64,000 bases of DNA from Escherichia phage vB_Eco_mar003J3: sequence record NC_048203.1, one strand, 5' to 3'. Positions 28,519-64,000 of the stretch are shown in pieces. The stretch's first letter is position 1. Every line of letters begins with the position of its first letter. The notes beneath the pieces are model-generated. The model was not told where the DNA came from, did no database searches, and saw only the letters and a program-made list of their open reading frames with translations. The position numbers were made by a program, and so were the translations under genes.

Positions 28519-29288
28519 TTAGTATAAAGTAAAAAGATCTCGAAGTAAACAAAAATTTTTATTTCTGGGATGAGGTACAGGTAGCAAACACAATGCAAGA
28601 TGAAGAAAAGCCCTTTCAGGAACCTGTTAACTTTGAAATAGATCCCAGGACTAAAGCAATACATGATGCGATTAACGAAATCATTCAAGACGTCATAGAA
28701 GATACAATATAAGACGTGATGGGAACATCCTTCTTACTAGAAGAATCCGGCTTCGACGAAGTAATGGATCTAATCGGGACAGTCGTAATGGTTCGTGCAA
28801 TTGCTAGGGTATTCCAAATACCAAGACTATAGGAGAAGCAAAGAGATGTCAGACGACAACAGAAGAAAGAACAGACGCGGGGAAGTGTACGAAAGTTGGA
28901 TAAATAGTTTCGGATTCGGAACTGTATTATTCTTTATCTTTGTACTCTTTTGGTTAGCGGCTATGGCGGGGTGGTTATAATGGAAGTAATAATTATTGCT
29001 TTACTAGTTGTGGTAATTATCGGGCAGTGCATTTTAGATAACCACTTAACTCGTATCGAACGTAAGCTGCGGGGAGACAAGTAATGTTTAGTTTTGTAGC
29101 TATCTTCATTATTGGGGTACTTGCGGGAATCTTCGGAACACTCGGGGCGATTAATAAGCATCGTGAATATATTGTGGGAGTATCGCGGGAGCTTTCGGAA
29201 AGGGAGCGGAGGTTTGCAGAAAAACGGGAGGAGTTCGAGCGAGAGTGGAGTGCTGGCTCAAGAAGCTCTCGTAGGAGATTTAAGATAG

Positions 29289-29786
29289 ATGACAAATCAT
29301 AAGCCCTTACTTCCCTTAGAGGAATACCAGAGTAAGTTCGATTATGATCCAGAAACAGGTATATTTACTTGGAACTCGGGGAGTCGTAGAGGTAAACCAG
29401 CTGGCGGCCGTAATGACTCGGGCATTTCCCTTTCTATGGGCAGCAAAGGCAAGTATAAGGCCCACCGAGTGGCGTGGTTATACATGACAGGGGAAGATCC
29501 AGGAGATCTTCTAATAGATCATAAAGATCAAGACCCCTGGAACAATAAATGGAACAACTTACGAAAAGCTACGAATAAAGAAAATAGTAATAACTCTTCC
29601 GGATGGGAAAATAAATCCACAGGTGTAAAAGGGATATATAAGAGGACAGAAGGGAAGTTCGAGGCGAGAATACGTGCTAACGGGGAAAGAATCAACGTAG
29701 GTACATTTGGTAGCCTCGAGGAAGCTGAAAGTGCGATAAGGGAAGCACGTGAGAAAGTATGTGGTGAGTTCACAAACCACGGTTAA
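29289..29786 (+). CDS. HNH homing endonuclease with AP2-like DNA-binding domain
   Basis: IDHKDQDPWNNKWNNLRKATNKEN HNH motif; GVKGIYKR...FEARIRANGERINVGTFGSLEEAE AP2-like; opposite strand to neighbours. Confidence 0.7.
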   Translation: MTNHKPLLPLEEYQSKFDYDPETGIFTWNSGSRRGKPAGGRNDSGISLSMGSKGKYKAHRVAWLYMTGEDPGDLLIDHKDQDPWNNKWNNLRKATNKENSNNSSGWENKSTGVKGIYKRTEGKFEARIRANGERINVGTFGSLEEAESAIREAREKVCGEFTNHG

Positions 29787-29959
29787 TAGCGCTAATTTGA
29801 AAATCTTGAAATTTCATAAGATTACACATGCGGATGTGCTCAGTGGGACTGGAGATAGTTAGTAGTCTAATAATCCCCCTGTGTTACTATTACCATGCTA
29901 ACTGTTTCATCCTGTAACCATTTTTTAATTACAGGATGAAACTATTTTATTTTTAATTG

Positions 29960-30694
29960 TTAGGCAACTTTTAATTTATCAATGAATTGTTGCGGAGCGG
30001 TACTATAGTCTCCCCTTTCTTCCTCAGTCATACCCTGCCAGCACATTTCTAAGCGCTGGCAAAGATATTGATAATCATTATCATCATCTAACGATTCATC
30101 AATAAAGGTTTCACCGATCAATGCTACGCCGATTGATAGGATATCGTTAACGGCTTGGGCGTCCAGTGTTTTGAATCCAGCACTTGCCGCCACCGATAAT
30201 ACGCCTTTATGATCATCAATCATCGTAAAATCAGCGTTTGGATATAGCTGTTTAAATAGTTCAAAGTAATAGCTTTTGTATACAGCGTCTTTGCTGTGGT
30301 ATATTTCGCTAACCTTATCCGCTTCAAAGTATTTGTGTAATGTATCGCGGGAGAATACGCGGATATTGCTATTTCCGCGCCCTCGCAAGCCTTGTTTACG
30401 CAAATAAAAGTAATCGCTTTTAGACATAAGGCGCGCGGTACAAATAACATTTAAAGTATTTGCATCATTCATACATTGGCGCATATATTCAACCAACGGC
30501 AATAAAGAATCCTGCATAATTAAATCATGTTTACAGGCTTCGCGGGAATACTTATTTAAATTTAAATTCCCGTTATCATCAAAGCAAGGCGCTACACGAT
30601 GGAAAGAATTAATGATTGTGCCGTCCAGATCCCAAATCATGACGCGGGAAATATGCGGGAAATTATGGGTAATATTCGTTTTAACTTGATTCAT
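29960..30694 (-). CDS. dmp: HAD-family 5'-deoxynucleotidase (T5 Dmp-like)
   Basis: 244 aa; HAD motif I WDLDGT near N-terminus. Confidence 0.55.
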   Translation of the reverse strand: MNQVKTNITHNFPHISRVMIWDLDGTIINSFHRVAPCFDDNGNLNLNKYSREACKHDLIMQDSLLPLVEYMRQCMNDANTLNVICTARLMSKSDYFYLRKQGLRGRGNSNIRVFSRDTLHKYFEADKVSEIYHSKDAVYKSYYFELFKQLYPNADFTMIDDHKGVLSVAASAGFKTLDAQAVNDILSIGVALIGETFIDESLDDDNDYQYLCQRLEMCWQGMTEEERGDYSTAPQQFIDKLKVA

Positions 30695-30774
30695 TTGTTA
30701 CATTCTCCATTTAAGGGATCTAGGTTAATTCAGCATTACCCGCTATTTATAAGCGGGTAATAATAAATTAACTA

Positions 30775-31167
30775 TTAAAGACCATACGCCAACGCATCAG
30801 CGATAAAACTAATATCCTCACCTGATACACTGGAACGAATCCCCGCGCAAGTGTAGACCTTTGCAGACATAAGAGCATTATCAAGGCAAGCGGGGCATGG
30901 CGCGACAACTGCAAACGCTAGACCTGATTTTACAGCGTCAATAATAACAGTTTGCTCTTTTACGGTATCAATATAAACGCCTTTTGCTTTTGTATGGCTT
31001 GACGCTTTACCGGTAATGTATGCAAATGTTGTTACCTGTAGCGCCTCGTTAAAGTCTAGCAGTTCATCAATAATATGACCCGATTCAACGTGATAACGCT
31101 CGCCATTAGAATAAACTAGAACGATGGAAGAAGTAGCGTGATCAAAAGGAATGTTTTGGTTTTTCAT
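30775..31167 (-). CDS. A2: pre-early protein (T5 A2-like)
   Basis: 130 aa, immediately downstream of A1-like gene. Confidence 0.4.
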   Translation of the reverse strand: MKNQNIPFDHATSSIVLVYSNGERYHVESGHIIDELLDFNEALQVTTFAYITGKASSHTKAKGVYIDTVKEQTVIIDAVKSGLAFAVVAPCPACLDNALMSAKVYTCAGIRSSVSGEDISFIADALAYGL

Positions 31168-31242
31168 GTTTAAAACTCCAGATTATTTAATTAACTTTTT
31201 CGGGAATATAAGCGGGGAATATTCCCCGCTGATTAAATTTAA

Positions 31243-32907
31243 TTAGGCAAAGAATTTGCCATTTTTGAAATCAATCAAGGTACGTTGACCGTTTGCATAT
31301 GTAATTAAATGCGTTTGCGTCCAGCTTGACGCGCCAACGTTGTAACCCATATCGAGACTACCAGCAACGCCAGCGGTATAAACGCCGCCGTATATACTAG
31401 CCGTGTGAGTGTGGCCCGTGTTGAGGCGTCCTAACTTTTTAAACTGTTTAGGATTGCCCCGACTGCCGTTAATGCCGTTGTGACCATGTACACCGCATTC
31501 AATTCCTGCAATCTTGAAAGATTGGTCAGTAGTCAGGAAAATAGCGTTAAATTCGCAACCTGCAACGTTTCTAAGCGCATAATCCAATACGTTAAAGGTA
31601 TCATCTTGTTTTGCAATAGCCGCATAAATCGCAGCGTTTAGGCTGTGATACAGTTCGGCGTTTGCGGGGTCGTCTTTAATGTTAGCGTTACGATCATCAA
31701 GCCAACGGGATAACGCCAAATCATGATTGGATTCCACGATGATTGTTTGAGAAAAATCGCGCTCCATTGACTCCAACACGCGACCGGTATCAATGAGATC
31801 GTCAATAACTTTATCACGTCCGGCGGCGTATTGTTTCGCAAGGAATACACCACTTGCGCGGTTGTGATGGTTACGCGATGTAAAATCATGCACATCATGA
31901 ATAAACTGATATTTCGGTTTAAGAATATCAAGCAAGCTATTTTCGCCCACCCATGATGCAACGGCGCATTCATCATCTAATTTTTCGGCGTGAATATCGC
32001 CATATTGCAAGCCTAGAACATGATCGGACGTTTCAAAACATCCGGTAGGCATAGCGCAAATATTCAAATCATAAAACATTCCGCTTTCATCCATTGTTTC
32101 AAGCTGGCGAACAAAAAATTCGCCGTCGTCGTCAAATTCTACCAACAAAGCGCCGTAATTATGCAGCGCCTCAGCTTTTTGACCTGCTTTCTGCTGAATA
32201 TAGTTTTTAAGTGTAGCCGTTCCGGTGGAGTACATACGGCGCACTACTTCACCTTTTAACGCTGGCACACTTTCAGCGGTAATTTTAGCGTGACCAATTG
32301 CCAGACCTTCAATATTTAAAGCCGTGGCGGTTTCTGCGAATCCTGAAAGCGGATAGTCTGCCGTTGGTAACACGTTAATTTCAGCCATGAAAGCAAAACG
32401 GCGATTATTTAAAAATACGTTTTTCTCGCAAATATATTTATTAAATGCGGGATCGTATTTAATGCCTTCGTTACCTTCTCCATTCTGGAAGCCGTTTTTA
32501 TTGTAAATGAATTTACTAACCAGCAATTCACCGCCGATATATTCAGCGAATTGCTCAAGCACTTTCAAAAAGTTTTTATGTGGGAAAGTATTATTTTGAA
32601 TCGACGTTAGAATAAAACGGCGACCGGATTTAACTTCCCACTGTTCCACGGTACTAGAAACAATCCCCGCCGCTTCTGGGCGATCATCATTTTTAATCGC
32701 CTTTTCAGCTTTTGCCGCTTTCGGTTTCGCTGGCTTATTTGCTTCCAGCCAGTCACAAATTGCGGTCGAATGTTTCGGCGTGTCATAAACAGCTTTTGAA
32801 ATATCGTCACAAACTTCCAATTTAGTAGCGCGTAAACGCTTGCCATAGAAATTAAAATCAGCGGCAAGTTTAGTGATCTGGGACTGTTTTTCTGCGGAAA
32901 TATTCAT
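31243..32907 (-). CDS. A1: pre-early metallophosphatase-fold protein (T5 A1-like)
   Basis: 554 aa (T5 A1 about 556 aa); calcineurin-like motifs GDIHAE, GHNG, GHTHTAS. Confidence 0.6.
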   Translation of the reverse strand: MNISAEKQSQITKLAADFNFYGKRLRATKLEVCDDISKAVYDTPKHSTAICDWLEANKPAKPKAAKAEKAIKNDDRPEAAGIVSSTVEQWEVKSGRRFILTSIQNNTFPHKNFLKVLEQFAEYIGGELLVSKFIYNKNGFQNGEGNEGIKYDPAFNKYICEKNVFLNNRRFAFMAEINVLPTADYPLSGFAETATALNIEGLAIGHAKITAESVPALKGEVVRRMYSTGTATLKNYIQQKAGQKAEALHNYGALLVEFDDDGEFFVRQLETMDESGMFYDLNICAMPTGCFETSDHVLGLQYGDIHAEKLDDECAVASWVGENSLLDILKPKYQFIHDVHDFTSRNHHNRASGVFLAKQYAAGRDKVIDDLIDTGRVLESMERDFSQTIIVESNHDLALSRWLDDRNANIKDDPANAELYHSLNAAIYAAIAKQDDTFNVLDYALRNVAGCEFNAIFLTTDQSFKIAGIECGVHGHNGINGSRGNPKQFKKLGRLNTGHTHTASIYGGVYTAGVAGSLDMGYNVGASSWTQTHLITYANGQRTLIDFKNGKFFA

Positions 32908-56501: not shown

Positions 56502-56870
56502 TTATATCGCCTGAGTAAATGTACGACTAATAACGTCGTTCTGTTGTTCACGCGTCAATGCGTTAAATCGAACAGCATAGCCAGAGACACGGATGGTCAA
56601 CTGAGGATATTTTTCAGGATGTTTCTGCGCATCCAAAAGCTGATCACGGCTTAACACATTGACATTTAGGTGCTGACCACCCTCGACTTGAGGAACCACT
56701 TCCACATCTACAATGCGAAAGGCCTCAGGGTCAAAGTGAGGTGTGATACCTTCTAGATCTTCGACTAGAACTTTCTGTTTAAGTTCACCATCTTTAGAAT
56801 ATAGTTGAATGATCTGATTGTTATGAACAATGTTAATTACGCCAGACTTAAGACTTTGATATGCTTTCAT
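56502..56870 (-). CDS. autonomous glycyl-radical cofactor (GrcA/YfiD-like)
   Basis: C-terminal [12 protein letters not shown]...[23 protein letters not shown] matches the pyruvate formate-lyase glycyl-radical motif RVSGY. Confidence 0.7.
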
Positions 56871-57242
56871 TAGATCTCCCTGATGTTAGAATTTGGCTCA
56901 GCTTTTTGTTAACCCAGAAGCAAGATAAAAACTGGAAGGCAGGCTTGCTTATTATCTAATCACTAGCTACGGTTGGGGTGCTAGCATTCCGGTGAGATTG
57001 ATGGTCTCGATTAGATAAATAAGCACTGGAACTTTGATTTTAACGTTGCGATCTTCCAGGTCTGTTGCAACTACGTGATTGCTCACGCTAAGACAATGGC
57101 TATCTAAAGTCCTAGCTTCTACATTTATACTCCTGGATAGCATGGAGTTACAGTCTACTTCCTGCTGTCACGCCCGGCCATTTATAGAATGTGGACTCTC
57201 TTCTCAGAAGGATCTGGTACAATGACCTGATCCTCTGTTTAG

Positions 57243-57315
57243 TAGTTAGTAGTGGATTTGAACCACTGTAGTCGCTCCGTATGAAGGAGGTGCATAACCG
57301 CTCTGCCAACTAACT
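57243..57315 (-). tRNA. tRNA, anticodon CAU (Met or Ile-lysidine)
   Basis: hand-folded cloverleaf; T-arm AGTGG-TTCAAAT-CCACT; acceptor AGTTAGT/ACTAACT. Confidence 0.6.
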
Positions 57316-57321
57316 ATAATT

Positions 57322-57397
57322 TGGTACTCCGACTTGGGATCGAACCAAGATTTGACGATTATCGGTCGCCTGTTCTAACCTGTTGAACTATCAGAGC
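57322..57397 (-). tRNA. tRNA-Ile, anticodon GAU (CCA encoded)
   Basis: acceptor GCTCTGA/TCGGAGT; anticodon loop CCGATAA; T-loop TTCGATC. Confidence 0.55.
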
Positions 57398-57398
57398 A

Positions 57399-57692
57399 TT
57401 ACATCATTTCATCTAAGTAAGAAGTATACTGGTATTTAGCTTCACCAGTCTTATCTACTTCTACCTCAGTTCGTGGTACTTTACGAACTAGACCATGAAT
57501 CATCTTGTACTGAATAGACTTAGATGGTTCGTGATCTTTTGGAAATACTTGTTTAACCGTTACTACTTTGAAGCCTTCACGAGGTGTTAATACAACAACT
57601 TGATCACCTTCTTTAATTTTCCAGGACTCAGGAAATTCATAAGTGTAGCGTTGACCACCAGTTTGGAACACGACAGAAAGATAACGTTTCAT
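57399..57692 (-). CDS. hypothetical protein
   Basis: 97 aa between tRNA genes. Confidence 0.45.
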   Translation of the reverse strand: MKRYLSVVFQTGGQRYTYEFPESWKIKEGDQVVVLTPREGFKVVTVKQVFPKDHEPSKSIQYKMIHGLVRKVPRTEVEVDKTGEAKYQYTSYLDEMM

Positions 57693-57767
57693 TTGGTTTC
57701 CCTCTCATTAATTTATATAAATATTATAACAAGAAATAAGAGAGAAGGCAAATGAATTTTTTAAATT

Positions 57768-57842
57768 TGGTGCTCCTACCAGGAATCGAACCCGGTTCAG
57801 ATGCTTACAAGGCAACTGCATCGCCAGCAATGCTTTAGGAGC
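57768..57842 (-). tRNA. tRNA-Thr, anticodon UGU (CCA encoded)
   Basis: acceptor GCTCCTA/TAGGAGC; loop CTTGTAA. Confidence 0.6.
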
Positions 57843-58009
57843 AATAAACCCATTATTTCAACGGGATTTCTTTTTCAAATATAGGGGACTTATCAGACAT
57901 TACTGTCATAGCCAACTGCTGTAGAAATTCGAATGAGAGTTTTAAACGTTCTTCTCCTAACTCAACCTCAACTCACTTCATTCGTTTATCTACTTTTAGC
58001 TTTAGATTA

Positions 58010-58231
58010 TCAGACATCTTCGGATTCTCGTTGCTCGGCTACTGCTAGCCAGTCTGGTAAAAGAAACTTAGTACGAAACTCTTCATAAGGTTCTTCTGGA
58101 TAAAAGCTAAAATTTGCTTTCTCATCATTCAAGATAACAGAGCCGTCAGTTTGTTCGTATGCTAGGTATGTTTCTCCAATAACAATAACTCGTTTATTGT
58201 TACTTTTATCACGAAACTCAAAAACGTGCAT
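58010..58231 (-). CDS. hypothetical protein
   Basis: 73 aa. Confidence 0.4.
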   Translation of the reverse strand: MHVFEFRDKSNNKRVIVIGETYLAYEQTDGSVILNDEKANFSFYPEEPYEEFRTKFLLPDWLAVAEQRESEDV

Positions 58232-58248
58232 AAATGTTTCCTTAAAGT

Positions 58249-58324
58249 TGGAGCGGCTAGAGGGAATCGAACCCTACTCAGCGGGGCTTGGAAGGCCTGC
58301 GGCACAACCCGTGTGCTTAACCGC
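58249..58324 (-). tRNA. tRNA, anticodon unresolved (possibly UCC or CCA); weak anticodon stem
   Basis: good acceptor and T-arm (TTCGATT), CCA encoded; anticodon arm has mismatches. Confidence 0.45.
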
Positions 58325-58332
58325 TTATTGGC

Positions 58333-58410
58333 TGGCAGGGGATATTGGATTTGAACCAATGATCTCGACTTCAAAGGCCGAAGCTTTAGACCAAGCTAAG
58401 CTAATCCCCA
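58333..58410 (-). tRNA. tRNA-Gln, anticodon UUG
   Basis: anticodon arm TCGGC-CTTTGAA-GTCGA; T-arm ATTGG-TTCAAAT-CCAAT. Confidence 0.55.
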
Positions 58411-58416
58411 ATTGTT

Positions 58417-58492
58417 TGGCTGGGATGCCACGGATCGAACGTAGAACCTTCGGAGTCAGAGGCCGACGATCTACCAATTGATCTACATCCCA
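58417..58492 (-). tRNA. tRNA-Gln, anticodon CUG
   Basis: standard numbering fits; D-stem GATC/GATC, G18G19, loop CTCTGAC, T-loop TTCGATC. Confidence 0.6.
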
Positions 58493-58499
58493 ATAATTT

Positions 58500-58700
58500 T
58501 TATTCTACAGGAACCGTGGCAATTGGATCTGGTTCTTCTAGACGTTTACCATTATGATCAACACGAATAATACCACAACCTTCACAGATTACAACAGCAC
58601 CATAGCCTTCTTTAACTTCGGCTTCTATAATCAGACCAGAAAGATCACCAGTATCTTTGCCCCACATATCGATAGAGCATTCTTTGCAGAAATCAGCCAT
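58500..58700 (-). CDS. small Cys-cluster protein
   Basis: 66 aa; FCKEC...CEGCG. Confidence 0.4.
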   Translation of the reverse strand: MADFCKECSIDMWGKDTGDLSGLIIEAEVKEGYGAVVICEGCGIIRVDHNGKRLEEPDPIATVPVE

Positions 58701-58724
58701 ATTTTAGTTCCTATATAAGTTAAT

Positions 58725-58799
58725 TGGTGCATCCTCAGGGAATCGAACCCCGATCGTAAAGTTCGTAGCTTTACATTCTTTCCATTGAAATAAGGACGC
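58725..58799 (-). tRNA. tRNA-Arg, anticodon ACG
   Basis: anticodon arm GTAAAG-CTACGAA-CTTTAC; acceptor GCGTCCT/AGGATGC; CCA encoded. Confidence 0.7.
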
Positions 58800-58805
58800 A
58801 ATATT

Positions 58806-58882
58806 TGGGGTGGCTAGTGGAATTCGAATCCACATAGGCCTGATTCACAATCAGGATCATTAACCAATTATGATATAGCCAC
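58806..58882 (-). tRNA. tRNA-His, anticodon GUG
   Basis: acceptor GTGGCTA/TAGCCAC; anticodon arm CCTGA-TTGTGAA-TCAGG; T-arm GTGGA-TTCGAAT-TCCAC. Confidence 0.7.
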
Positions 58883-59216
58883 AATTGAAAACTCGCAGGG
58901 TTAGCGAAACCATCCTCAAATAGCATTTTCTAGAATACTAATCAAGTTATCCCCTATTGCACGAAGCTCAAGACGAGTACGAATTTTCAATTGTGGCGGC
59001 TCTCCGAAACTCTTCCCACTTACAACTAGTTGATTACTCCTAGATTGTCGCCCAGGAAATTCTCTAGAAAGGAGCACCGTTACTCTTTGAGCCATTGAGG
59101 TGGGATAGTCTCTTATCTCTACTAACTACTTGATCCTTACAATCAGTCGGTTAGCACGAGCAGCGACTCTTCATATATAATTTATAGTGCTCAGAAGGTC
59201 ATTAGAAGCACTTATC

Positions 59217-59300
59217 AAGAAGCAGAAGGACTCGAACCTTCACGAGATAGACCATTTATCTCAGCCTCGTTTTCGGGTATCTTATGAGGAGTGGATGTTC
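59217..59300 (-). ncRNA. tRNA-like element (T-arm GAAGG-TTCGAGT-CCTTC plus 6-bp hairpin), cloverleaf not resolved
   Basis: no complementary 5' acceptor strand found by eye. Confidence 0.3.
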
Positions 59301-59379
59301 CCCTTACGCCCTTTAGGAAGCCCCGTCTACCGATTCCGGCATACTTCAAGATTCTGCTAGTCCGAGTCATGCTATAGCA

Positions 59380-59721
59380 TCAAATGCTCGGTGTTAGTGG
59401 TTTCCAAAGTTTAGCAAACTTTAAAACATTTGGTATATCGTTAGAACTTACTGGCATAACTACTAAACAGCTGGGTTCTGCGTTACAAATAGTACGCTCA
59501 AATCCTTTACTACACTCTAGCGTAGACAGAATCTTCTTAAATTCTTTCTTGTTAACCTTAATAACTACCTTAAAGAAGCAGTTGTCAAACCAATCCTTAT
59601 ATCTAGGATCATCCTGAAATTTAACATGAGCATTTAAAACAGAGTGTGCCACTAGAGTCGGCACCATATAATCAGGGGCTTCATCTAATACTGCAATATA
59701 CATCTTACTATAAGTACTCAT
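59380..59721 (-). CDS. hypothetical protein
   Basis: 113 aa. Confidence 0.45.
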   Translation of the reverse strand: MSTYSKMYIAVLDEAPDYMVPTLVAHSVLNAHVKFQDDPRYKDWFDNCFFKVVIKVNKKEFKKILSTLECSKGFERTICNAEPSCLVVMPVSSNDIPNVLKFAKLWKPLTPSI

Positions 59722-59737
59722 ACTGTTCCTTATAATT

Positions 59738-59827
59738 TGGAGGAAGGTAATGGAGTCGAACCATCACCATATCGCTACAGCGGGCAGGTTTTCAAGACCT
59801 GTTACATACCACTATGTCCTACCTTCC
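59738..59827 (-). tRNA. tRNA-Ser, anticodon UGA (type II, long variable arm)
   Basis: acceptor GGAAGGT/ACCTTCC; anticodon arm CAGGT-CTTGAAA-ACCTG; 90 nt. Confidence 0.7.
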
Positions 59828-59834
59828 AGTTGTT

Positions 59835-59924
59835 TGGCGGAAGAAGAGAGATTCGAACTCTCAAGCCGTTTTACCAGTCAGCCACTTTCCAAGCGGTTTT
59901 CGTCACCTATCGATTTGCTCTTCC
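59835..59924 (-). tRNA. tRNA-Ser, anticodon GGA (type II)
   Basis: acceptor GGAAGAG/TTCTTCC; loop TTGGAAA; T-arm GAGAG-TTCGAAT-CTCTC; 90 nt. Confidence 0.65.
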
Positions 59925-60098
59925 GTAGATCTCAGGATTAAATCATAAACTTCATTAGCGGATACTGGAAGTATGAGATTATACATCTTTTGGTCATACC
60001 TCTGACCATACTCTATAAACACATACTCTTTAGTTAATGTATTAACAGCTAACCAGATATCAGTTATAGGAGTTTTCATCATGAGTTAATCCAATGTT

Positions 60099-60179
60099 TG
60101 GTAGGGATGGAGGGACTCGAACCCACACCCGAAGACTAGAACCTAAATCTAGCGCGTCTGCCAATTTCGCCACATCCCC
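60099..60179 (-). tRNA. tRNA-Leu-like, anticodon UAG, 9-nt variable region
   Basis: anticodon arm CTAGA-TTTAGGT-TCTAG; acceptor GGGGATG/CATCCCT. Confidence 0.55.
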
Positions 60180-60186
60180 ATTTTAT

Positions 60187-60405
60187 TTAGTTAGAAATAA
60201 ATAGTAACCCTGCAACAATGGAACCTATGCCACTGAATACCATTATCAGCATAGCTTCTAAGCTGATAAAGCGGACGTTATATGGAGCGCCCCAAGAATA
60301 ATCAGTAAAGAAAGTTTTCTTTTCTTTAGCTAAATCTTTAATAGTTCTAAAATAGATAGCTAGTGCTAAAGCTGCAAGAACTACAGAGGCTGCTAAGAAT
60401 ATCAT
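60187..60405 (-). CDS. small membrane protein (2 TM)
   Basis: 72 aa. Confidence 0.45.
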   Translation of the reverse strand: MIFLAASVVLAALALAIYFRTIKDLAKEKKTFFTDYSWGAPYNVRFISLEAMLIMVFSGIGSIVAGLLFISN

Positions 60406-60424
60406 ATTATTTCCTTAATTTGTT

Positions 60425-60500
60425 TGGTGGAGTCACTCAGAATTGAACTGAGTTCCACTGCTTGCAAGGCAGTAAGTTTAACCAAATAACCTATGACCCC
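60425..60500 (-). tRNA. tRNA-Ala, anticodon UGC (G3-U70 present)
   Basis: acceptor GGGGTCA/TGACTCC; anticodon arm ACTGC-CTTGCAA-GCAGT. Confidence 0.7.
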
Positions 60501-60505
60501 GAATT

Positions 60506-60584
60506 TGGTGGAGAATAAGAGATTCGAACTCTTCTGATATCCTCGGTGCAAGCGAGGTGTCCACTCCAAGCAGACCCATTCCCC
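60506..60584 (-). tRNA. tRNA with anticodon UGC and G3-U70 (second Ala-like tRNA)
   Basis: acceptor GGGGAAT/ATTCTCC; anticodon arm CCTCG-CTTGCAC-CGAGG. Confidence 0.55.
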
Positions 60585-60867
60585 AAAATCTTTAAGTTTA
60601 CTAAGGCTATTAGCTCGGTGTGCGTATTACCCTCAGACATTAGCCAGTAGAGGATAACCGCTCTTCACAAACCCGATACACTATTCAGTTGCCGCTGAAT
60701 CTAGTGGACTAATCTAGAACTTATTGCAAAGTATCCCCCGCCATTAAGGGTCTAATTGCAATTGTGCTTTTTGGCAGCCAGTCCTAGGTCGAGCTAATAC
60801 CTTAGTGAACTTTGATGAGGATTTCTCCTCATCAATTTATATAAATATTATAACAAGAAATTAAGCA

Positions 60868-61227
60868 TCAAGCAAGTACATTTTTAGCGATTTCTTGTAT
60901 TTCCTTAACGTCACTAACGAAAAGGTAATCAGAGCTTCCAGAGTGCATACTCTGCATAACCACACCATCCTCTGGTGCATCTTCTTTCAGTGTGATACCT
61001 AACCAGAACTCGGCAAAACTAGGTGTTACCTCACCTTGACTTGCCTTGAATACATCGGCTTCTGTAATCTCTTGACCAGTGGAGAGTCCCATGTATGGTA
61101 CGTTCAGATCAATATCTTTGTAGAATTCAGCTAGATCTTGTTCGAAGTCCCAACCTTTAGAGATAGCGAACTCACTTGTTACATGACCGAAATAGCCTTG
61201 AACCTTGCTTGATAATTGCATTTGCAA
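60868..61227 (-). CDS. hypothetical acidic protein
   Basis: 119 aa. Confidence 0.45.
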   Translation of the reverse strand: MQMQLSSKVQGYFGHVTSEFAISKGWDFEQDLAEFYKDIDLNVPYMGLSTGQEITEADVFKASQGEVTPSFAEFWLGITLKEDAPEDGVVMQSMHSGSSDYLFVSDVKEIQEIAKNVLA

Positions 61228-61246
61228 TTCCTTATTTTGAGTTAAT

Positions 61247-61320
61247 TGGTACTCGGTGATAGAATCGAACTATCGCAACCGCCGTGTAAAGACGGGGTTC
61301 TCCCATTAAACTAACCGAGC
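61247..61320 (-). tRNA. tRNA-Val, anticodon UAC
   Basis: acceptor GCTCGGT/ACCGAGT; loop TTTACAC; T-arm GATAG-TTCGATT-CTATC. Confidence 0.65.
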
Positions 61321-61329
61321 AAAGTAATT

Positions 61330-61407
61330 TGGTGGGTCGTGAAGGACTCGAACCTTCAACCTATTGCTTAAAAGGCAAGTGCTACTAACCAATTGAGCTA
61401 ACGACCC
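61330..61407 (-). tRNA. tRNA-Lys, anticodon UUU
   Basis: acceptor GGGTCGT/ACGACCC; loop CTTTTAA; T-arm GAAGG-TTCGAGT-CCTTC. Confidence 0.6.
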
Positions 61408-61591
61408 TTAATACGGATAAACTTCCTTAATAGAGTAAGCTTCTAAGTAGCGATGATTAATACCAAATTCAGCCATTACTTCATTTTCATCTTTACCATA
61501 GTGGGCTAAGGTATACTTCGAACGATCTTTGCTAGAACGTCGATCACTTACTACTAATCGAAATAATTTCATTTCGTATCCTCTACTAAAT

Positions 61592-61669
61592 TGGAAGCGG
61601 GTGTAGGAATCGAACCTACCTCTTACTAGCTTATGAGACTAGTGATCTCTACCAGAGATCTAACCCGCA
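61592..61669 (-). tRNA. tRNA, anticodon CAU (Met or Ile-lysidine), second copy
   Basis: anticodon arm CTAGT-CTCATAA-GCTAG; D-stem GATC/GATC. Confidence 0.55.
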
Positions 61670-61675
61670 ATTGTT

Positions 61676-61752
61676 TGGTCTCCAATGAAGGACTCGAACC
61701 TTCAACCCCACCGCCCCAAACGGTGTACTCTAGCCAATTGAGCTAATCGGAG
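61676..61752 (-). tRNA. tRNA-Pro, anticodon UGG
   Basis: acceptor CTCCGAT/ATTGGAG; anticodon arm CACCG-TTTGGGG-CGGTG. Confidence 0.65.
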
Positions 61753-62139
61753 AATATTATTTCTTTAGCCACAACATACTTAATCCTAGCATTGTGAAGC
61801 CTGTACTTAGTCCTACTACTTTCCACATCGTAGAAAGTACATCTATATTAAAGCCAACAATTATTACTGGAATTACCCAAGTACACATAAATACGGATGC
61901 AATTTTTACCTTCATTTCGCTTTCCTTTCATCACTTTATAAAATATATTATACAGAGAATTAAGCAGAATAGCAAATGAATTTTTAATAAATTTACTTAT
62001 TGTGTAGGCCACCTGGAGGCTATGAACCCCACGGCTGACAAAGAAGTTTGCGAGACCTCTCTTAAATGCCAGAATAGACCCGCCGATCTATCGGAACCTA
62101 CATAATAAGTAAACTTTCGCTTACTTATAAGTCAATCTA

Positions 62140-62260
62140 GGCAGGACTTGAACCTGCTATCACTTGTGCGGATTTACGAGAACCATTCTTTCACTCGAAT
62201 CGAACGAGCTTCTACCCTCGGCAAGCTGGTGACCCCTCTCCACCACGCTAGAATGTTTAA
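62140..62260 (-). ncRNA. two tRNA-like T-arm motifs without resolvable cloverleaves (possible degenerate tRNAs)
   Basis: GCAGG-TTCAAGT-CCTGC and GCTCG-TTCGATT-CGAGT present; acceptor pairing not found. Confidence 0.25.
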
Positions 62261-62261
62261 T

Positions 62262-62339
62262 TGGTACACCTGCTGAGATTCAAACTCAGTATCTTCCGAT
62301 TAAGAGTCGGTTGCTTTAAGTCAACTAAGCTACAGATGC
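62262..62339 (-). tRNA. tRNA, anticodon CUU (Lys-like)
   Basis: acceptor GCATCTG/CAGGTGT; loop CTCTTAA; T-arm CTGAG-TTTGAAT-CTCAG. Confidence 0.5.
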
Positions 62340-62345
62340 ATTGTT

Positions 62346-62420
62346 TGGCGGTACTAAGGGTAATCGAAACCCTACCTCTCCCGTGACAGGGGAGTATCCT
62401 AACCATTAGACTATAGTACC
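62346..62420 (-). tRNA. tRNA-Asp, anticodon GUC
   Basis: acceptor GGTACTA/TAGTACC; anticodon arm CTCCC-CTGTCAC-GGGAG. Confidence 0.7.
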
Positions 62421-62992
62421 TTTAACTTTTTAAGTTCTTTAGGATTGCCTCCTAAAGAAGTGTATCTTTTACGCAACCCATTGTCTGAATAACTTAACTT
62501 TCTCCCTGCACCTGACCAGCCTAGCTCTCTTACTGTAACCTCGATTATTTCTTTAGTTATAGAGATATCTTTTGGTTTATGTGAAGAGCACTCCTGACAT
62601 TTTTCAGCTTTTAAAGAAATAGCTTTACCACAATCCTTACAATAATTATCATGGTTTAGTTTACTAAATCCTTTGTCTTTTAAAGTCTTTTCTAGATGCT
62701 GCTCTTTTGTGAGCACTTGTAAGTTATTAAGACCCCAATAAGTAATGTCTGTGTTAATATGGTCAACTTCTAGTTCAGAGTCTAGACTTGGTAATTTCTT
62801 AAATGCACATGCTAAAATCCTATGTACACCGGTATTTCTCGGTTGACCATTTTTATGGAGACGTATAGATAAGTATCCGTAATTACTGGTTATTGGGGTT
62901 AGTATTTTGTTTGATTTGATACTAAATACTAACCCATCCAAACTTACTAAGTACTCCTCAAACCCTGGAATGGGTAAGGATATTCCGTGCAT
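62411..62992 (-). CDS. HNH homing endonuclease
   Basis: EVDHINTDITYWGLNNLQVLTKEQH HNH motif; embedded in tRNA array. Confidence 0.65.
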   Translation of the reverse strand: MHGISLPIPGFEEYLVSLDGLVFSIKSNKILTPITSNYGYLSIRLHKNGQPRNTGVHRILACAFKKLPSLDSELEVDHINTDITYWGLNNLQVLTKEQHLEKTLKDKGFSKLNHDNYCKDCGKAISLKAEKCQECSSHKPKDISITKEIIEVTVRELGWSGAGRKLSYSDNGLRKRYTSLGGNPKELKKLKVL

Positions 62993-62995
62993 AAT

Positions 62996-63181
62996 TTATT
63001 CAGCCCGAAGTTTTTCGATAGCTTCCTCAACCTCTTTTAGAGCTTCACGACGTGCATTCTGTTGCTGCATATCTTGAATTAATGTCAGTTTTTGGTTTTC
63101 AATTTCTTGATCACGAACCTTAATATTATTAATCAGATTATCACGATCAGCTTCTAGTCGAGCAATTGCACGAGTTGTCAT
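62996..63181 (-). CDS. small coiled-coil protein
   Basis: 61 aa. Confidence 0.4.
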   Translation of the reverse strand: MTTRAIARLEADRDNLINNIKVRDQEIENQKLTLIQDMQQQNARREALKEVEEAIEKLRAE

Positions 63182-63208
63182 ATCTATTTCCTCAGTTGTT
63201 AATGAAAT

Positions 63209-63291
63209 TGGCGGGCCGTGTAGGATTCGAACCTACGTTGTCTTTCGACATGGATTAACAGTCCACCGCCAAACCGCTTGGCTAACGACCC
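63209..63291 (-). tRNA. tRNA, anticodon GUU (Asn-like) with unusually long 13-nt variable region
   Basis: acceptor GGGTCGT/ACGGCCC; anticodon arm GTGGA-CTGTTAA-TCCAT. Confidence 0.5.
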
Positions 63292-63298
63292 TAAAATT

Positions 63299-63374
63299 TG
63301 GACGACCGCATGAGATTCGAACTCACATAAGGAGGTTTTGCAGGCCTCCGCCTAAGCCATTCAGCCAACGGTCG
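63299..63374 (-). tRNA. tRNA-Cys, anticodon GCA
   Basis: acceptor CGACCGT/GCGGTCG; loop CTGCAAA; T-arm GTGAG-TTCGAAT-CTCAT. Confidence 0.6.
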
Positions 63375-63791: not shown

Positions 63792-64000
63792 TTTATGTAA
63801 TAATTATACAGAACTTTAAGGATTTAAGCAACTACATTTTTCAGAAATTTGATGCCTTTCTTACGCTTCTTATACCACCACGTCTTAGAGTTTTGTCGAT
63901 TATGAACGCTTGAGATCTTCGCCTCATTAAAGTGCTTCAAAAGCATATAATCAGCCCCTAATTGCTCAAGTGGAATGTGATCTCCACTAGAATCATAAAC

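What the first reader, a model, noticed from the sequence alone, without database searches (positions are those of the whole stretch)
57243..63374. Array of about 20 tRNA genes with apparent isoacceptor pairs and several non-canonical or unresolved members
I hand-folded 20 minus-strand tRNAs; most encode CCA. There are apparent pairs (two CAU, two Gln UUG/CUG, two Ser, two UGC tRNAs both with G3-U70, two Lys-like UUU/CUU), a UAG-anticodon tRNA with only a 9-nt variable region, and a GUU tRNA with a 13-nt variable region. Three loci (58249..58324, 59217..59300, 62140..62260) have good T-arms but cloverleaves I could not complete. Anticodons read by eye have moderate reliability. Unusual phage tRNAs can be decoys or substrates for host anticodon nucleases, which makes the odd ones worth folding properly.
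Basis: seen in the sequence. Interest (0 to 1): 0.5.

Follow-up and report, generated by a model that had tools for sequence, protein, structure and literature searches.

The report
T5-type phage tRNA gene cluster
This is the well-known transfer-RNA gene cluster of a T5-like phage: 21 tRNA genes, plus two tRNA-shaped RNAs and several other small RNAs that were named in phages T5 and BF23 long ago and whose function is still unknown.

Summary
The window is a T5-like phage (Demerecviridae, Epseptimavirus-like), and the array is syntenic with the annotated tRNA region of T5 and BF23.

The three "unresolved" loci are all known features:
- 58249-58324 is tRNA-Gly(UCC), called tRNAG1 in T5/BF23.
- 59207-59350 is "RNA1, tRNA-like RNA with unknown functions".
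- 62130-62255 is "RNA2", described the same way.

Homologues of stable RNAs RNAI, RNAIII, RNAIV and RNA2H fill the other non-coding gaps.

The odd tRNAs are conserved alleles in hundreds of related phages: Leu(UAG) with a 9-nt variable region, Asn(GUU) with a 13-nt one, and two Ala(UGC).

New here:
- Covariation supports RNA1 as a class-II tRNA cloverleaf whose anticodon loop is replaced by a two-helix arm capped by an invariant loop.
- RNA2 belongs to a family also found in tRNA arrays of T4-like Acinetobacter phages.

Function is mixed. A-ending codons read by the U34 tRNAs are 1.4-5x enriched in the phage. Published work shows that T5 Lys/Thr/Asn/Tyr tRNAs replace host tRNAs cut by defence nucleases. 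The decoy idea for the odd members is untested.

The parts
57242..57315 (-). tRNA-Met(CAU), elongator (T5/BF23 tRNAM). 3' end encodes CUA instead of CCA.
   Evidence: ARAGORN. Rfam 49.9 bits. 98.6% identical to BF23 tRNAM. The CCA>CUA allele is in 3 of 19 related loci.
57322..57397 (-). tRNA-Ile(GAU)
57768..57842 (-). tRNA-Thr(UGU). Its anticodon arm is identical to that of T5 and has G39 where E. coli has U39, next to the PARIS AriB cut site.
   Evidence: PMC12409363
It encodes CCA. It has a pyrimidine-pyrimidine mismatch at the top of the anticodon stem, and this allele adds an A.C mismatch.
   Evidence: Found by ARAGORN only at -ps80, a setting that gives 2.4 false calls per shuffle. Support therefore rests on 97% identity to BF23 tRNAG1, on annotation as tRNA-Gly in IrmaTschudi, T5 and BF23, and on the Sugarlandvirus copy, which changes all 4 D-stem pairs and 2 anticodon-stem pairs while keeping pairing.
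58333..58410 (-). tRNA-Gln(UUG)
58417..58492 (-). tRNA-Gln(CUG)
58725..58799 (-). tRNA-Arg(ACG)
58806..58882 (-). tRNA-His(GUG). Position -1 (58883) is T, not the G-1 that E. coli encodes.
   Evidence: 100% identical to the 78-nt BF23 tRNAH, which includes that base.
58884..58989 (-). Homologue of T5/BF23 RNAIII (stable RNA, function unknown)
   Evidence: 96% identity over all 106 nt
58990..59096 (-). RNAI-like module. Both ends match T5 RNAI; the middle differs.
   Evidence: 87-89% identical to copies in Sugarlandvirus and Hongcheonvirus.
59101..59206 (-). Extra ~106-nt non-coding module. It is absent from T5/BF23 and present in Klebsiella Sugarlandvirus phages.
   Evidence: 81% identity to L063 and L059. 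No ORF of 30 aa or more.
59207..59350 (-). It is a class-II cloverleaf with an acceptor stem of 6 bp plus a U.U, a 3-bp D stem, a 6-bp variable arm and a T arm. The anticodon loop is replaced by two extra helices capped by the near-invariant loop ACAUCCAC. No CCA is encoded.
   Evidence: Annotated rna1 in AY692264 and NC_042564. Covariation: 34 pairs, 98.5% paired, 14 with compensatory change, 0/500 shuffles. Found in 491 phage records.
59738..59827 (-). tRNA-Ser(UGA), class II
   Evidence: 88.9% identical to BF23 tRNAS1.
59835..59924 (-). tRNA-Ser(GGA), class II. This is the least canonical of the 20, with a weak D arm.
   Evidence: Rfam gives only 25 bits to tRNA-Sec. The BF23 counterpart is annotated as not convertible to an amber suppressor, and the T5 record flags it as pseudo.
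60099..60179 (-). tRNA-Leu(UAG), 81 nt. The 9-nt variable region contains a C(UUCG)G hairpin. It has A73 and a tRNA-Leu-type D arm.
   Evidence: Relatives have 85 nt (T5), 81 nt (IrmaTschudi) and 77 nt (BF23; amber-suppressor test positive).
60425..60500 (-). tRNA-Ala(UGC), G3.U70
60506..60584 (-). tRNA-Ala(UGC), 79-nt isodecoder with G3.U70 and enlarged D and variable loops
   Evidence: (38 bits). Matches in 413 phage records, annotated tRNA-Ala in most of the listed ones. A different allele from the 74-nt Ala at this position in the closest relatives.
60600..60806 (-). Homologue of T5/BF23 RNA 2H (stable RNA), downstream of a promoter homologous to P13b
   Evidence: Fold z-score -5.9.
61247..61320 (-). 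tRNA-Val(UAC)
61330..61407 (-). tRNA-Lys(UUU). The anticodon arm is CUUGC-CUUUUAA-GCAAU, so position 39 is G where E. coli has U.
   Evidence: E. coli sequence and AriB site from PMC11464382 and PMC12409363
61592..61669 (-). tRNA-fMet(CAU) initiator (T5/BF23 tRNAfM), with a U1.U72 mismatch
   Evidence: 96% identity
61676..61752 (-). tRNA-Pro(UGG)
62001..62103 (-). Homologue of T5/BF23 RNAIV (stable RNA)
   Evidence: 96% identity over 103 nt
62130..62255 (-). It has a 7-bp acceptor stem, a D-like stem and a genuine T arm. Between the D-like stem and the T arm sits a long-range helix GGGY/RUCC, which encloses a second T-loop hairpin and a GAA-UGG-UUC mini-hairpin. No CCA is encoded.
   Evidence: Annotated rna2 in AY692264 and NC_042564; 90% identity. 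Covariation: 16 core pairs, 99.4% paired, 8 with compensatory change, 0/500 shuffles. Acceptor-stem pairing is kept with different sequences in other lineages.
62262..62339 (-). tRNA-Lys(CUU)
62346..62420 (-). tRNA-Asp(GUC)
62411..62992 (-). HNH/NUMOD4 homing-endonuclease ORF. Its last 10 nt overlap the 5' end of tRNA-Asp.
   Evidence: Annotated as a homing endonuclease in IrmaTschudi.
63209..63291 (-). tRNA-Asn(GUU), 83 nt, G73, with the 13-nt variable region GUCGAAAGACAAC. The anticodon arm keeps the E. coli-like UAAUCC.
   Evidence: (59 bits). 86 nt in IrmaTschudi and 78 nt in T5.
63299..63374 (-). tRNA-Cys(GCA)

Best explanation
The region is the tRNA gene cluster of a T5-like phage (Demerecviridae). 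It is the same unit as the annotated tRNA region of T5 and BF23. The window ends at 64000, so the array probably continues beyond it; relatives carry Phe, Glu, Tyr, Leu UAA, Ile2 and Ser GCU further on.

Contents: 21 tRNA genes (the 20 called at default, plus tRNA-Gly UCC), two non-decoding tRNA-shaped RNAs (RNA1 and RNA2), four or five other small structured RNAs (RNAI-like, RNAIII, RNAIV, RNA2H and one extra module), small ORFs and a homing endonuclease.

Shown here:
- identity and synteny with T5/BF23;
- the tRNA folds and anticodons;
- covariation-supported structures for RNA1 and RNA2.

Inferred from the T5/BF23 annotation and general tRNA biology:
- The genes are transcribed from several sigma-70 early promoters as multi-gene precursors.
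- Host RNase P and 3' trimming enzymes cut these into mature RNAs. RNA1 and RNA2 are probably processed the same way because they keep an acceptor stem, T arm and D arm.

What the tRNAs do is twofold.
(a) Codon supplementation. The U34 tRNAs read A-ending codons that this AT-rich phage uses 1.4-5 times more than E. coli.
(b) Replacement of host tRNAs destroyed by defence nucleases. This is shown experimentally for T5 Lys(UUU), Thr(UGU), Asn(GUU) and Tyr. In the window, Lys and Thr carry a substitution at position 39 beside the PARIS cut site.

RNA1 and RNA2 cannot decode. Their role is unknown. My best guess is that they bind or titrate a factor that recognises the acceptor/elbow half of tRNA.
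For: Identity and synteny:
- 614 phage records match. The best are about 93% identical and are Epseptimavirus.
- Element-by-element mapping to the BF23 and T5 annotation.

tRNAs; the shuffle control gave 0 false calls.

tRNA-Gly: homology plus compensatory changes in the Sugarlandvirus copy.

RNA1: 98.5% of cells paired, 14 of 34 pairs with compensatory change, and none of 500 shuffles reached it for percent paired, pairs or cells changed on both sides, or covariation score.

RNA2: 99.4% paired, 8 of 16 pairs with compensatory change; 0/500 shuffles for percent paired and covariation score, 11/500 for the number of pairs changed on both sides.

Codon usage, as relative synonymous use in the window's late genes against 40 E. 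coli K-12 genes: CUA 4.9x, GGA 2.6x, ACA 2.2x, GUA 2.0x, CCA 2.0x, CAA 1.5x, UCA 1.4x, GCA 1.4x.

Codon compensation does not cover everything. Cognate codons of the G34 tRNAs (Ile, His, Asp, Asn, Cys, Ser GGA) and AAA are under-used, at 0.45-0.78x. Several of these anticodons belong to known nuclease targets.

Anti-defence role:
- T5 tRNA-Lys is not cleaved by AriB, and U39>A alone abolishes cleavage of E. coli tRNA-Lys.
- T5 Lys+Thr+Asn tRNAs neutralise PARIS (PMC11464382, PMC12409363).
- T5 tRNA-Tyr counters retron-Eco7 (cited).
- The window's Lys and Thr both have G39, and the Thr arm is identical to that of T5.
Against: - No expression or processing data for this phage. Promoters are inferred from homology; the simple consensus scan was not enriched over shuffles.
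- tRNA-Gly(UCC) and Ser(GGA) score poorly in general tRNA models. The BF23 Ser2 counterpart failed a suppressor test, so not every gene need be a working tRNA.
- The window's tRNA-Asn keeps the E. coli-like AriB site UAAUCC, so it may not be nuclease-resistant.
- RNA1, RNAI, RNAIII and RNA2H fall inside the T5-123 deletion by my coordinate mapping. That phage is viable, and T5 tRNA-Lys alone rescues it on PARIS+ cells. These RNAs are therefore dispensable in the laboratory and not needed against PARIS.
- The proposed role for RNA1/RNA2 is a guess.
Confidence: 0.85

Rival explanations
1. The non-canonical members (short-arm Leu, long-arm Asn, duplicate Ala, the unresolved loci) are decoys or sacrificial substrates that soak up host anticodon nucleases.
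For: - T5-encoded tRNAs are themselves cut by at least one defence nuclease: RorSlfn5 cuts T5 Ala UGC and Met CAU (PMC13056530).
- Anticodon arms of same-anticodon tRNAs differ strongly between related phages, as expected under selection by nucleases.
- RNA1 and RNA2 keep the tRNA elbow and acceptor half, with conserved loops.
Against: - The published mechanism for T5 tRNAs is resistance plus functional replacement, not titration.
- RNA1 and RNA2 have no 7-nt anticodon loop, so nucleases that read the anticodon stem-loop have nothing to recognise.
- BF23 Leu, Ala, Lys, Thr and Gln2 counterparts work as suppressors when the anticodon is changed, so they are working tRNAs.
- T5-123 lacks RNA1 and is rescued on PARIS+ cells by tRNA-Lys alone.
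Confidence: 0.1
2. Pure codon compensation. The array exists only to supply tRNAs for codons that are rare in the host.
For: Eight of nine U34 tRNAs match codons enriched 1.4-4.9x in late genes. Relatives also carry Arg UCU, Leu UAA and Ile2 for AGA (11x), UUA (2.6x) and AUA (3.8x).
Against: - Cognate codons of Ile GAU, His, Asp, Asn, Cys, Ser GGA, Gln CUG and Lys UUU are used less than in E. coli, at 0.45-0.78x.
- Experiments show anti-defence roles for T5 Lys, Thr, Asn and Tyr.
- This view does not explain RNA1 or RNA2.
Confidence: 0.2
3. The unresolved loci are decaying tRNA pseudogenes, disrupted by insertions and without function.
For: RNA1 looks like a class-II tRNA with a 41-nt insertion at the anticodon loop. 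Neither RNA1 nor RNA2 encodes CCA. Both are dispensable in laboratory deletion mutants (inference).
Against: - Compensatory changes occur in every RNA1 helix that varies, including the two helices of the insert.
- The apical loop ACAUCCAC (17 of 18 sequences) and the variable-arm loop (all 18) stay constant across sequences from three Demerecviridae lineages.
- RNA1 is 93% identical between Epseptimavirus and Sugarlandvirus, although the surrounding tRNA regions differ in gene order and share only short non-coding modules at the DNA level.
- The RNA2 core is conserved, with covariation, in T4-like Acinetobacter phages and in uncultivated phage contigs.
Confidence: 0.04
4. RNA1 is an intron-containing tRNA that is spliced into a working tRNA.
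For: No such call appeared in 60 shuffles.
Against: - 41 nt is far too short for a self-splicing group I intron, which established knowledge puts at about 200 nt or more. No Rfam intron family matches.
- The flanks form an A-rich internal loop, not a bulge-helix-bulge.
- The residual 'anticodon' differs between lineages, and the insert's stems covary like a permanent structural arm.
- There is no CCA, and position 1:72 is U.U.
Confidence: 0.02

Closest known systems
tRNA gene region of phages T5 and BF23 (GenBank AY692264, AY587007, NC_042564)
   Same: The order of elements matches: Cys-Asn...Asp...RNA2-RNAIV-Pro-fMet...Lys-Val-RNA2H-Ala...Ser2-Ser1...RNA1-RNAI-RNAIII-His...Gln2-Gln1-Gly1...Thr...Ile-Met, followed by the glycyl-radical ORF. 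Individual elements are 78-100% identical, and an HNH endonuclease is interspersed.
   Different: - The window has Arg(ACG), Lys(CUU) and a second Ala, which T5/BF23 lack at these positions.
- It has an extra ~106-nt module between RNA1 and RNAI, and a ~290-nt non-coding insertion after tRNA-Met.
- It has different alleles of the Leu(UAG), Asn, Lys(UUU), Ile and Cys anticodon or variable arms.
Epseptimavirus phages such as IrmaTschudi (Bas28) and SUT_E1620
   Same: They are the closest overall, about 93% identical over 7 kb. They share the long-variable-arm Asn (86 and 83 nt), the 81-nt Leu(UAG), the Arg(ACG) and the Lys(CUU).
   Different: They carry a 74-nt Ala where the window has the 79-nt isodecoder. 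IrmaTschudi has an extra tRNA-Gly(GCC) and a second homing endonuclease. Neither record annotates RNA1, RNA2 or Ser(GGA).
Nuclease-resistant phage tRNAs (T5 tRNA-Lys/Thr/Asn against PARIS AriB; T5 tRNA-Tyr against retron-Eco7)
   Same: The anticodons are the same. The window's Thr arm is identical to that of T5. The window's Lys has a substitution at position 39, the position whose change abolishes AriB cleavage.
   Different: The window's Lys has G39/A41 where T5 has A39/C41. The window's Asn keeps the E. coli-like site. Resistance was not tested.
T4 species 1 and species 2 RNAs (rnaC, rnaD)
   Same: They are small stable RNAs of unknown function embedded in a phage tRNA cluster. rnaC ends in a T arm plus an acceptor-like stem.
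   Different: I saw no sequence similarity to RNA1 or RNA2 by eye. No homology test was passed, so this is only an analogy.
tmRNA tRNA-like domain and bacterial Y-RNA-like (YrlA) tRNA mimics
   Same: Both are RNAs that keep the acceptor/T-arm half of a tRNA and replace the anticodon half with something else.
   Different: ARAGORN's tmRNA search finds nothing. No Rfam family matches RNA1 or RNA2 at E<=1. There is no G3.U70, no tag reading frame and no CCA. In YrlA the acceptor-like helix is closed by a loop (from memory), which is not the case here.

Membership tests
Canonical bacterial-type tRNA | Cloverleaf with a 7-bp acceptor stem, D arm, 5-bp anticodon stem with a 7-nt loop, and a T arm with the TTCRA loop | tested here: met
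   ARAGORN at default gives 20 genes, against 0 in 60 shuffles.
Canonical bacterial-type tRNA | Score at or above the Rfam RF00005 gathering threshold (29 bits) | tested here: inconclusive
   Met for 17 at default filters, and for the 79-nt Ala (38 bits) in the permissive search. Ser UGA, Ser GGA and Gly UCC are listed only under the related tRNA-Sec model, below its threshold. This is expected for class II tRNAs but weak for Gly.
Canonical bacterial-type tRNA | Aminoacylation and decoding | not testable with these tools
   The only support is the BF23 record's notes on amber-suppressor tests of counterparts: positive for Leu1, Ala, Lys, Thr, Gln2 and Glu; negative for Ser2, Pro, Gly2 and Gln1.
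T5/BF23-type tRNA gene cluster | Synteny and sequence identity with the annotated T5/BF23 tRNA region, including the named stable RNAs | tested here: met
   RNA1 81%, RNA2 90%, RNAIII 96%, RNAIV 96%, RNA2H 78-80%. tRNA identities run from 88.7% (Gln2) to 100% (His); tRNA-Asp matches over only 30 nt.
T5/BF23 RNA1 (tRNA-like RNA) | Homology to annotated rna1, with a conserved structure | tested here: met
   blastn hits whose annotated feature is rna1. Covariation on 18 distinct sequences.
T5/BF23 RNA2 (tRNA-like RNA) | Homology to annotated rna2, with a conserved structure | tested here: met
   (90%). Covariation on 10 sequences, including 4 non-T5-like ones. Acceptor-stem pairing shown.
Nuclease-resistant replacement tRNAs (PARIS evasion) | Same anticodon as the host targets Lys UUU, Thr UGU and Asn GUU | tested here: met
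Nuclease-resistant replacement tRNAs (PARIS evasion) | Substitution at or next to the AriB site U36-A-A-U39-C40|A41 | tested here: inconclusive
   Met for Lys (G39) and Thr (G39, identical to T5). Not met for Asn, which has UAAUCC as in E. coli.
Nuclease-resistant replacement tRNAs (PARIS evasion) | Not cleaved by the nuclease, and rescues infection | not testable with these tools
   Needs cleavage and plating assays.
Intron-containing tRNA (group I intron in the anticodon loop) | Self-splicing intron of about 200 nt or more with a group I core | tested here: not met
   The insert is 41 nt. There is no Rfam intron match. The insert helices covary as a permanent arm.
tmRNA | tRNA-like domain with G3.U70 and CCA, plus a tag reading frame | tested here: not met
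   The ARAGORN tmRNA search gave 0 hits. Neither RNA1 nor RNA2 has CCA or G3.U70.
T4 rnaC/rnaD stable RNAs | Sequence homology | not tested
   I compared the sequences only by eye and saw no obvious similarity. I treat them as an analogy.

The most novel reading that the evidence does not exclude
RNA1 and RNA2 may be dedicated non-decoding tRNA mimics. Each has a tRNA acceptor/T-arm/D-arm 'top half' joined to a conserved specialised arm. In RNA1 this arm carries the near-invariant ACAUCCAC loop and an invariant AAUGGUC loop. In RNA2 it carries a second T-loop and a UGG-loop hairpin. The RNA2 type is shared by T5-like phages, T4-like Acinetobacter phages and uncultivated phages, and has no Rfam family. 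These RNAs could bind a host factor that recognises the tRNA elbow or 3' end, such as a defence effector or a tRNA-processing enzyme. Alternatively they could bind tRNA NCCA ends through the conserved UGGU. Either way they would be a new class of phage counter-defence or translation-control RNAs.
Probability: 0.12. Interest if true: 0.7.

Novelty: already known. Interest (0 to 1): 0.27.

Why it matters
As a finding about a tRNA array it is ordinary. T5-like phages have long been known to carry about 20-26 tRNAs, and recent work explains several of them as replacements for host tRNAs cut by PARIS and retron-Eco7.

Two practical points remain.
1. Most modern GenBank records of these phages leave RNA1, RNA2 and the other stable RNAs unannotated, or cover them with spurious 'hypothetical proteins'. 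tRNA-Gly(UCC) and Ser(GGA) are inconsistently called.
2. RNA1 and RNA2 are strongly conserved, clearly structured and still without a function. RNA2-like elements recur in tRNA arrays of unrelated large phages. The structures given here make deletion, pull-down and nuclease assays straightforward to design.

Tried and rejected
1. Lowering ARAGORN thresholds. -ps80 and -i -ps85 recover the Gly and an RNA2 'tRNA', but full shuffles give 2.4 and 3.4 false calls per 7.5 kb. Those calls count for nothing alone. My first shuffle control was flawed because the shuffling was incomplete, and I discarded it.

2. Thermodynamic folding of single sequences. For RNA1, RNA2 and Gly the z-scores were -0.8, +0.4 and -0.5, which is uninformative. 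Covariation was needed.

3. I guessed from memory that the 113-aa ORF next to RNA1 (59380-59721) is a PTH2-type peptidyl-tRNA hydrolase. It has no Pfam hit, no PDB sequence hit and only phrog_5822 'unknown'. Only 6 of 55 homologous loci carry 3 or more tRNA genes within the fetched flanks. I dropped the idea.

4. Apparent similarity of RNA2 to the tmRNA PK1 region (GCCGAGGG...CUCGUAAA...CCGCA), recalled from memory. The pairings it implies are not kept in the distant RNA2 homologues, and ARAGORN finds no tmRNA. I rejected it as chance.

5. Looking for a parent tRNA of RNA1. With the insert removed it aligns about equally to Ser, Leu and Tyr class-II tRNAs. The D loop resembles tRNA-Leu, but no parent can be named.

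6. The IMG/VR scan with a 16-base RNA1 pattern returned many chance matches, as expected from the database size. Only T5-like contigs held real RNA1.

7. The SAR202 hit in the genome-contig scan for RNA2 looks unrelated.

8. Literature searches for the original T5 RNA I/III/1/2 papers found nothing in the held library.

Full report
**1. What is there**

ARAGORN at its default threshold finds 20 tRNA genes in the 64-kb window. All are on the minus strand between 57242 and 63374, and none lies elsewhere.
- Met CAU (two genes), Ile GAU, Thr UGU, Gln UUG, Gln CUG, Arg ACG, His GUG
- Ser UGA, Ser GGA, Leu UAG, Ala UGC (two genes), Val UAC
- Lys UUU, Lys CUU, Pro UGG, Asp GUC, Asn GUU, Cys GCA

Sixty full shuffles of the 7.5-kb region gave no default-threshold calls. 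The Rfam tRNA model passes its gathering score for 17 genes. The 79-nt Ala reaches 38 bits with permissive filters. The two class-II Ser genes are listed only under the related tRNA-Sec model.

Details confirmed:
- Nineteen of the twenty encode CCA. The tRNA-Met at 57242-57315 has CUA, a minority allele seen in 3 of 19 related loci.
- Both Ala genes have G3.U70.
- Leu(UAG) is 81 nt. Its 9-nt variable region, UCUUCGGGU, contains a C(UUCG)G hairpin.
- Asn(GUU) is 83 nt with a 13-nt variable region and G73.

**2. Where it comes from**

The 7-kb region matches 614 phage records. The best, at about 93% identity, are Epseptimavirus members of the Demerecviridae, such as SUT_E1620 and IrmaTschudi. 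The rest of the window carries T5-type late genes: tape measure, pb4 straight fibre, capsid, portal and terminase.

Two GenBank records from the laboratory that studied the T5 tRNA region annotate it in detail: T5 st0 (AY692264) and the BF23 tRNA gene region (NC_042564). Mapping the BF23 features onto the window gives a one-to-one correspondence.

**3. The three unresolved loci**

*Locus 1 (58249-58324)* is tRNA-Gly(UCC), called tRNAG1 in T5/BF23.
- It is 97% identical to the BF23 gene and encodes CCA.
- ARAGORN finds it only at a relaxed threshold. That threshold is noisy on its own, with 2.4 false calls per shuffle.
- It scores low because the top of the anticodon stem has a pyrimidine-pyrimidine mismatch in all lineages. 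The window allele adds an A.C where T5 has A-U.
- The copy in a Klebsiella Sugarlandvirus changes all four D-stem pairs and two anticodon-stem pairs while keeping pairing.
- GGA is used 2.6-2.9 times more in the phage than in E. coli.

*Locus 2* is the 3' part of RNA1 (59207-59350), annotated 'tRNA-like RNA with unknown functions'.
- With introns allowed, ARAGORN calls it at default threshold as a class-II tRNA with a 41-nt insert in the anticodon loop. No such call occurred in shuffles.
- On 18 distinct sequences from T5-type, Epseptimavirus-type, Sugarlandvirus and Hongcheonvirus phages, I tested a seven-helix structure. It has an acceptor stem of 6 bp plus a U.U, a 3-bp D stem, a 5-bp 'anticodon' stem, two further helices formed by the insert, a 6-bp variable arm and a T arm.
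- This structure is 98.5% paired, and 14 of its 34 pairs show compensatory changes. No shuffle out of 500 reached it, and slid controls fall to 41-53% paired.
- The apical loop ACAUCCAC is the same in 17 of 18 sequences, and the variable-arm loop (A)AAUGGUC in all 18.
- There is no encoded CCA and no 7-nt anticodon loop, so RNA1 cannot decode.
- It occurs in 491 phage records and is almost never annotated.

*Locus 3* is RNA2 (62130-62255), annotated in the same words.
- It has a 7-bp acceptor stem, a D-like stem and a true T arm.
- Between the D-like stem and the T arm there is a long-range helix, GGGY/RUCC. It encloses a second T-loop hairpin (CUCG-UUCGAUU-CGAG) and a small GAA-UGG-UUC hairpin.
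- On ten sequences these 16 core pairs are 99.4% paired, with 8 showing compensatory changes (0/500 shuffles for covariation score).
- Acceptor pairing is kept with quite different sequences in other lineages.
- RNA2-like elements are not confined to T5-like phages. They sit inside the tRNA arrays of the T4-like Acinetobacter phages 133 and ZZ1, in a 167-kb MAG contig with 14 tRNAs in 8 kb, and in an 86-kb uncultivated viral contig. Two shorter viral contigs also carry one, one with 3 tRNAs nearby and one with none in the fetched stretch.
- No Rfam family matches RNA1 or RNA2 at E<=1.

**4. The other gaps**

- The stretch between RNA1 and tRNA-His holds an extra ~106-nt module (absent from T5, present in Sugarlandvirus), an RNAI-like module and RNAIII at 96% identity.
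- RNAIV follows RNA2.
- The stretch upstream of the Ala genes is RNA 2H. It folds far better than shuffles, with z = -5.9.
- After tRNA-Met there is a ~290-nt non-coding insertion (part of the 371-nt gap 56871-57241). About 147 records share it, and it folds moderately better than shuffles, with z = -2.2.

**5. The 'odd' tRNAs are conserved alleles**

- The 79-nt Ala matches 413 records, including Klebsiella, Proteus, Aeromonas and Yersinia phages, and is identical in several Salmonella phages.
- The long-arm Asn is 86 nt in IrmaTschudi and 83 nt in SUT_E1620, against 78 nt in T5.
- Leu(UAG) ranges over 85 nt (T5), 81 nt (the window and IrmaTschudi) and 77 nt (BF23). The BF23 record states that the 77-nt form becomes an efficient amber suppressor when its anticodon is changed. 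From established knowledge, E. coli LeuRS does not need the long variable arm. The window gene keeps A73 and the Leu-type D arm.
- The two CAU genes are not duplicates: 61592-61669 is the initiator (tRNAfM, U1.U72) and 57242-57315 is the elongator Met.
- Ser(GGA) is the weakest of the 20. Its BF23 counterpart failed the suppressor test, and one T5 record flags both Ser(GGA) and Ser(UGA) as pseudo.

**6. How it works**

I compared codon usage in 23 late-gene ORFs (8,754 codons) and 33 other ORFs of the window with 40 annotated E. coli K-12 genes.
- Codons cognate to the U34 tRNAs are over-used in the phage: CUA 4.9x, GGA 2.6x, ACA 2.2x, GUA 2.0x, CCA 2.0x, CAA 1.5x, UCA 1.4x, GCA 1.4x.
- Codons cognate to Lys UUU and to the G34 tRNAs (Ile, His, Asp, Asn, Cys, Ser GGA) are under-used, at 0.45-0.78x.

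Codon supplementation therefore explains roughly half the set. For the rest, published experiments on T5 give a second role:
- PARIS AriB cuts E. coli Lys(UUU), Thr(UGU) and Asn(GUU) between positions 40 and 41.
- T5 tRNA-Lys is not cut, and U39>A alone abolishes cleavage of E. coli tRNA-Lys.
- The three T5 tRNAs together neutralise PARIS (PMC11464382, PMC12409363).
- T5 tRNA-Tyr counters retron-Eco7.
- A bacterial Schlafen cuts T5 Ala and Met tRNAs (PMC13056530).

In the window, Lys(UUU) and Thr(UGU) both have G39, and the Thr arm is identical to that of T5. Asn keeps the E. coli-like UAAUCC. Anticodon arms of same-anticodon tRNAs differ widely between T5, BF23, IrmaTschudi and the window. 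This fits diversifying pressure, but that is inference.

For RNA1 and RNA2, the structure is shown and the function is not. They keep the parts of tRNA that RNase P and the CCA-adding enzyme recognise, so they are probably matured like tRNAs. By my coordinate mapping, the T5-123 deletion (29191-32442) removes RNA1, RNAI, RNAIII and RNA2H. That phage is viable and is rescued on PARIS+ cells by tRNA-Lys alone. These RNAs are therefore accessory and unrelated to PARIS.

**7. Comparison and novelty**

The array is a member of the T5/BF23 tRNA cluster by every test I could run. The closest analogy for RNA1 and RNA2 outside the family is the pair of T4 stable RNAs, rnaC and rnaD, in the T4 tRNA cluster. 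I saw no sequence similarity to them. tmRNA, Y-RNA-like and intron-containing tRNA were considered and not supported.

The finding is therefore already known. What may be new are the covariation-backed models of RNA1 and RNA2, and the presence of RNA2-like elements in unrelated phage tRNA arrays. I could not check the older literature, which the held library does not contain.

**8. Verdict**

Interest is low to moderate (0.27). The residual value lies in the two conserved tRNA mimics of unknown function.

Noticed in passing
window 56871-57241 (-): About 290 nt of this 371-nt non-coding gap between tRNA-Met and the glycyl-radical ORF is an insertion relative to T5 and IrmaTschudi. It contains a long-range helix (GCUUAUUUAUCUAAUC / GAUUAGAUAAUAAGC). 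It is complete in about 147 phage records. A 63-nt piece lies next to RNA1 in Sugarlandvirus. Fold z-score is -2.2. It is mostly unannotated, or covered by a 'hypothetical protein'.
   Followed up: partly
window 59101-59206 (-): An extra ~106-nt non-coding module sits between RNA1 and the RNAI-like element. T5/BF23 lack it. It is about 81% identical to elements in Klebsiella Sugarlandvirus phages, where it sits elsewhere in the tRNA region. The small non-coding modules appear to move independently of their neighbours.
   Followed up: partly
L117 7630-7760 (Acinetobacter phage 133), L129 1500-1610 (ZZ1), L124/L009, L131-L134: RNA2-like elements share the core GUUCGAUUC...UGAAAGNAUGGU...CGUAAAUCCGCA. 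They occur in tRNA arrays of T4-like Acinetobacter phages, in a 167-kb MAG contig and in an 86-kb uncultivated phage contig, and also in two shorter viral contigs with few or no tRNAs nearby. All are unannotated, and Rfam has no such family.
   Followed up: partly
window 58883 (-), just 5' of tRNA-His: The base at position -1 of tRNA-His is T, not the G-1 encoded in E. coli and needed by HisRS (from established knowledge). The BF23 record annotates a 78-nt tRNA-His that includes this base. RNAIII ends immediately upstream.
   Followed up: no
window 57242-57244 (-): The 3' end of elongator tRNA-Met reads ACUA instead of ACCA (C75>T). Two IMG/VR T5-like contigs share this; 16 other loci have CCA. 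It would need 3' repair by the CCA-adding enzyme.
   Followed up: yes
L002 4483-8329 (SUT_E1620, OQ939939): This GenBank record annotates a 'tRNA-Gly' joined from two pieces 3.8 kb apart, spanning a dozen other tRNA genes. It is almost certainly an annotation artefact. One piece lies at the tRNA-Gly(UCC) locus.
   Followed up: no
window 59380-59721 (-): This 113-aa ORF next to RNA1 (phrog_5822, no Pfam or PDB sequence match) has relatives at 44-66% identity in 55 diverse viral contigs. Most of these carry no tRNA genes within the fetched flanks. Function is unknown.
   Followed up: partly
window 56502-56870 (-): The ORF just downstream of the array has a glycine-radical domain (Pfam Gly_radical, E = 4e-18). 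It resembles a small spare glycyl-radical subunit of the GrcA/YfiD type and is conserved at this position in T5 and BF23.
   Followed up: no
window 62411-62420 (-): The HNH/NUMOD4 homing-endonuclease ORF overlaps the first 10 nt of tRNA-Asp. IrmaTschudi has the same arrangement.
   Followed up: no
window 59252-59262 and 62183-62193 (-): RNA1 and RNA2 both display a conserved AAUGGU in a hairpin loop. UGGU is complementary to the ACCA 3' end of tRNAs. This is a lead only; nothing was tested.
   Followed up: no
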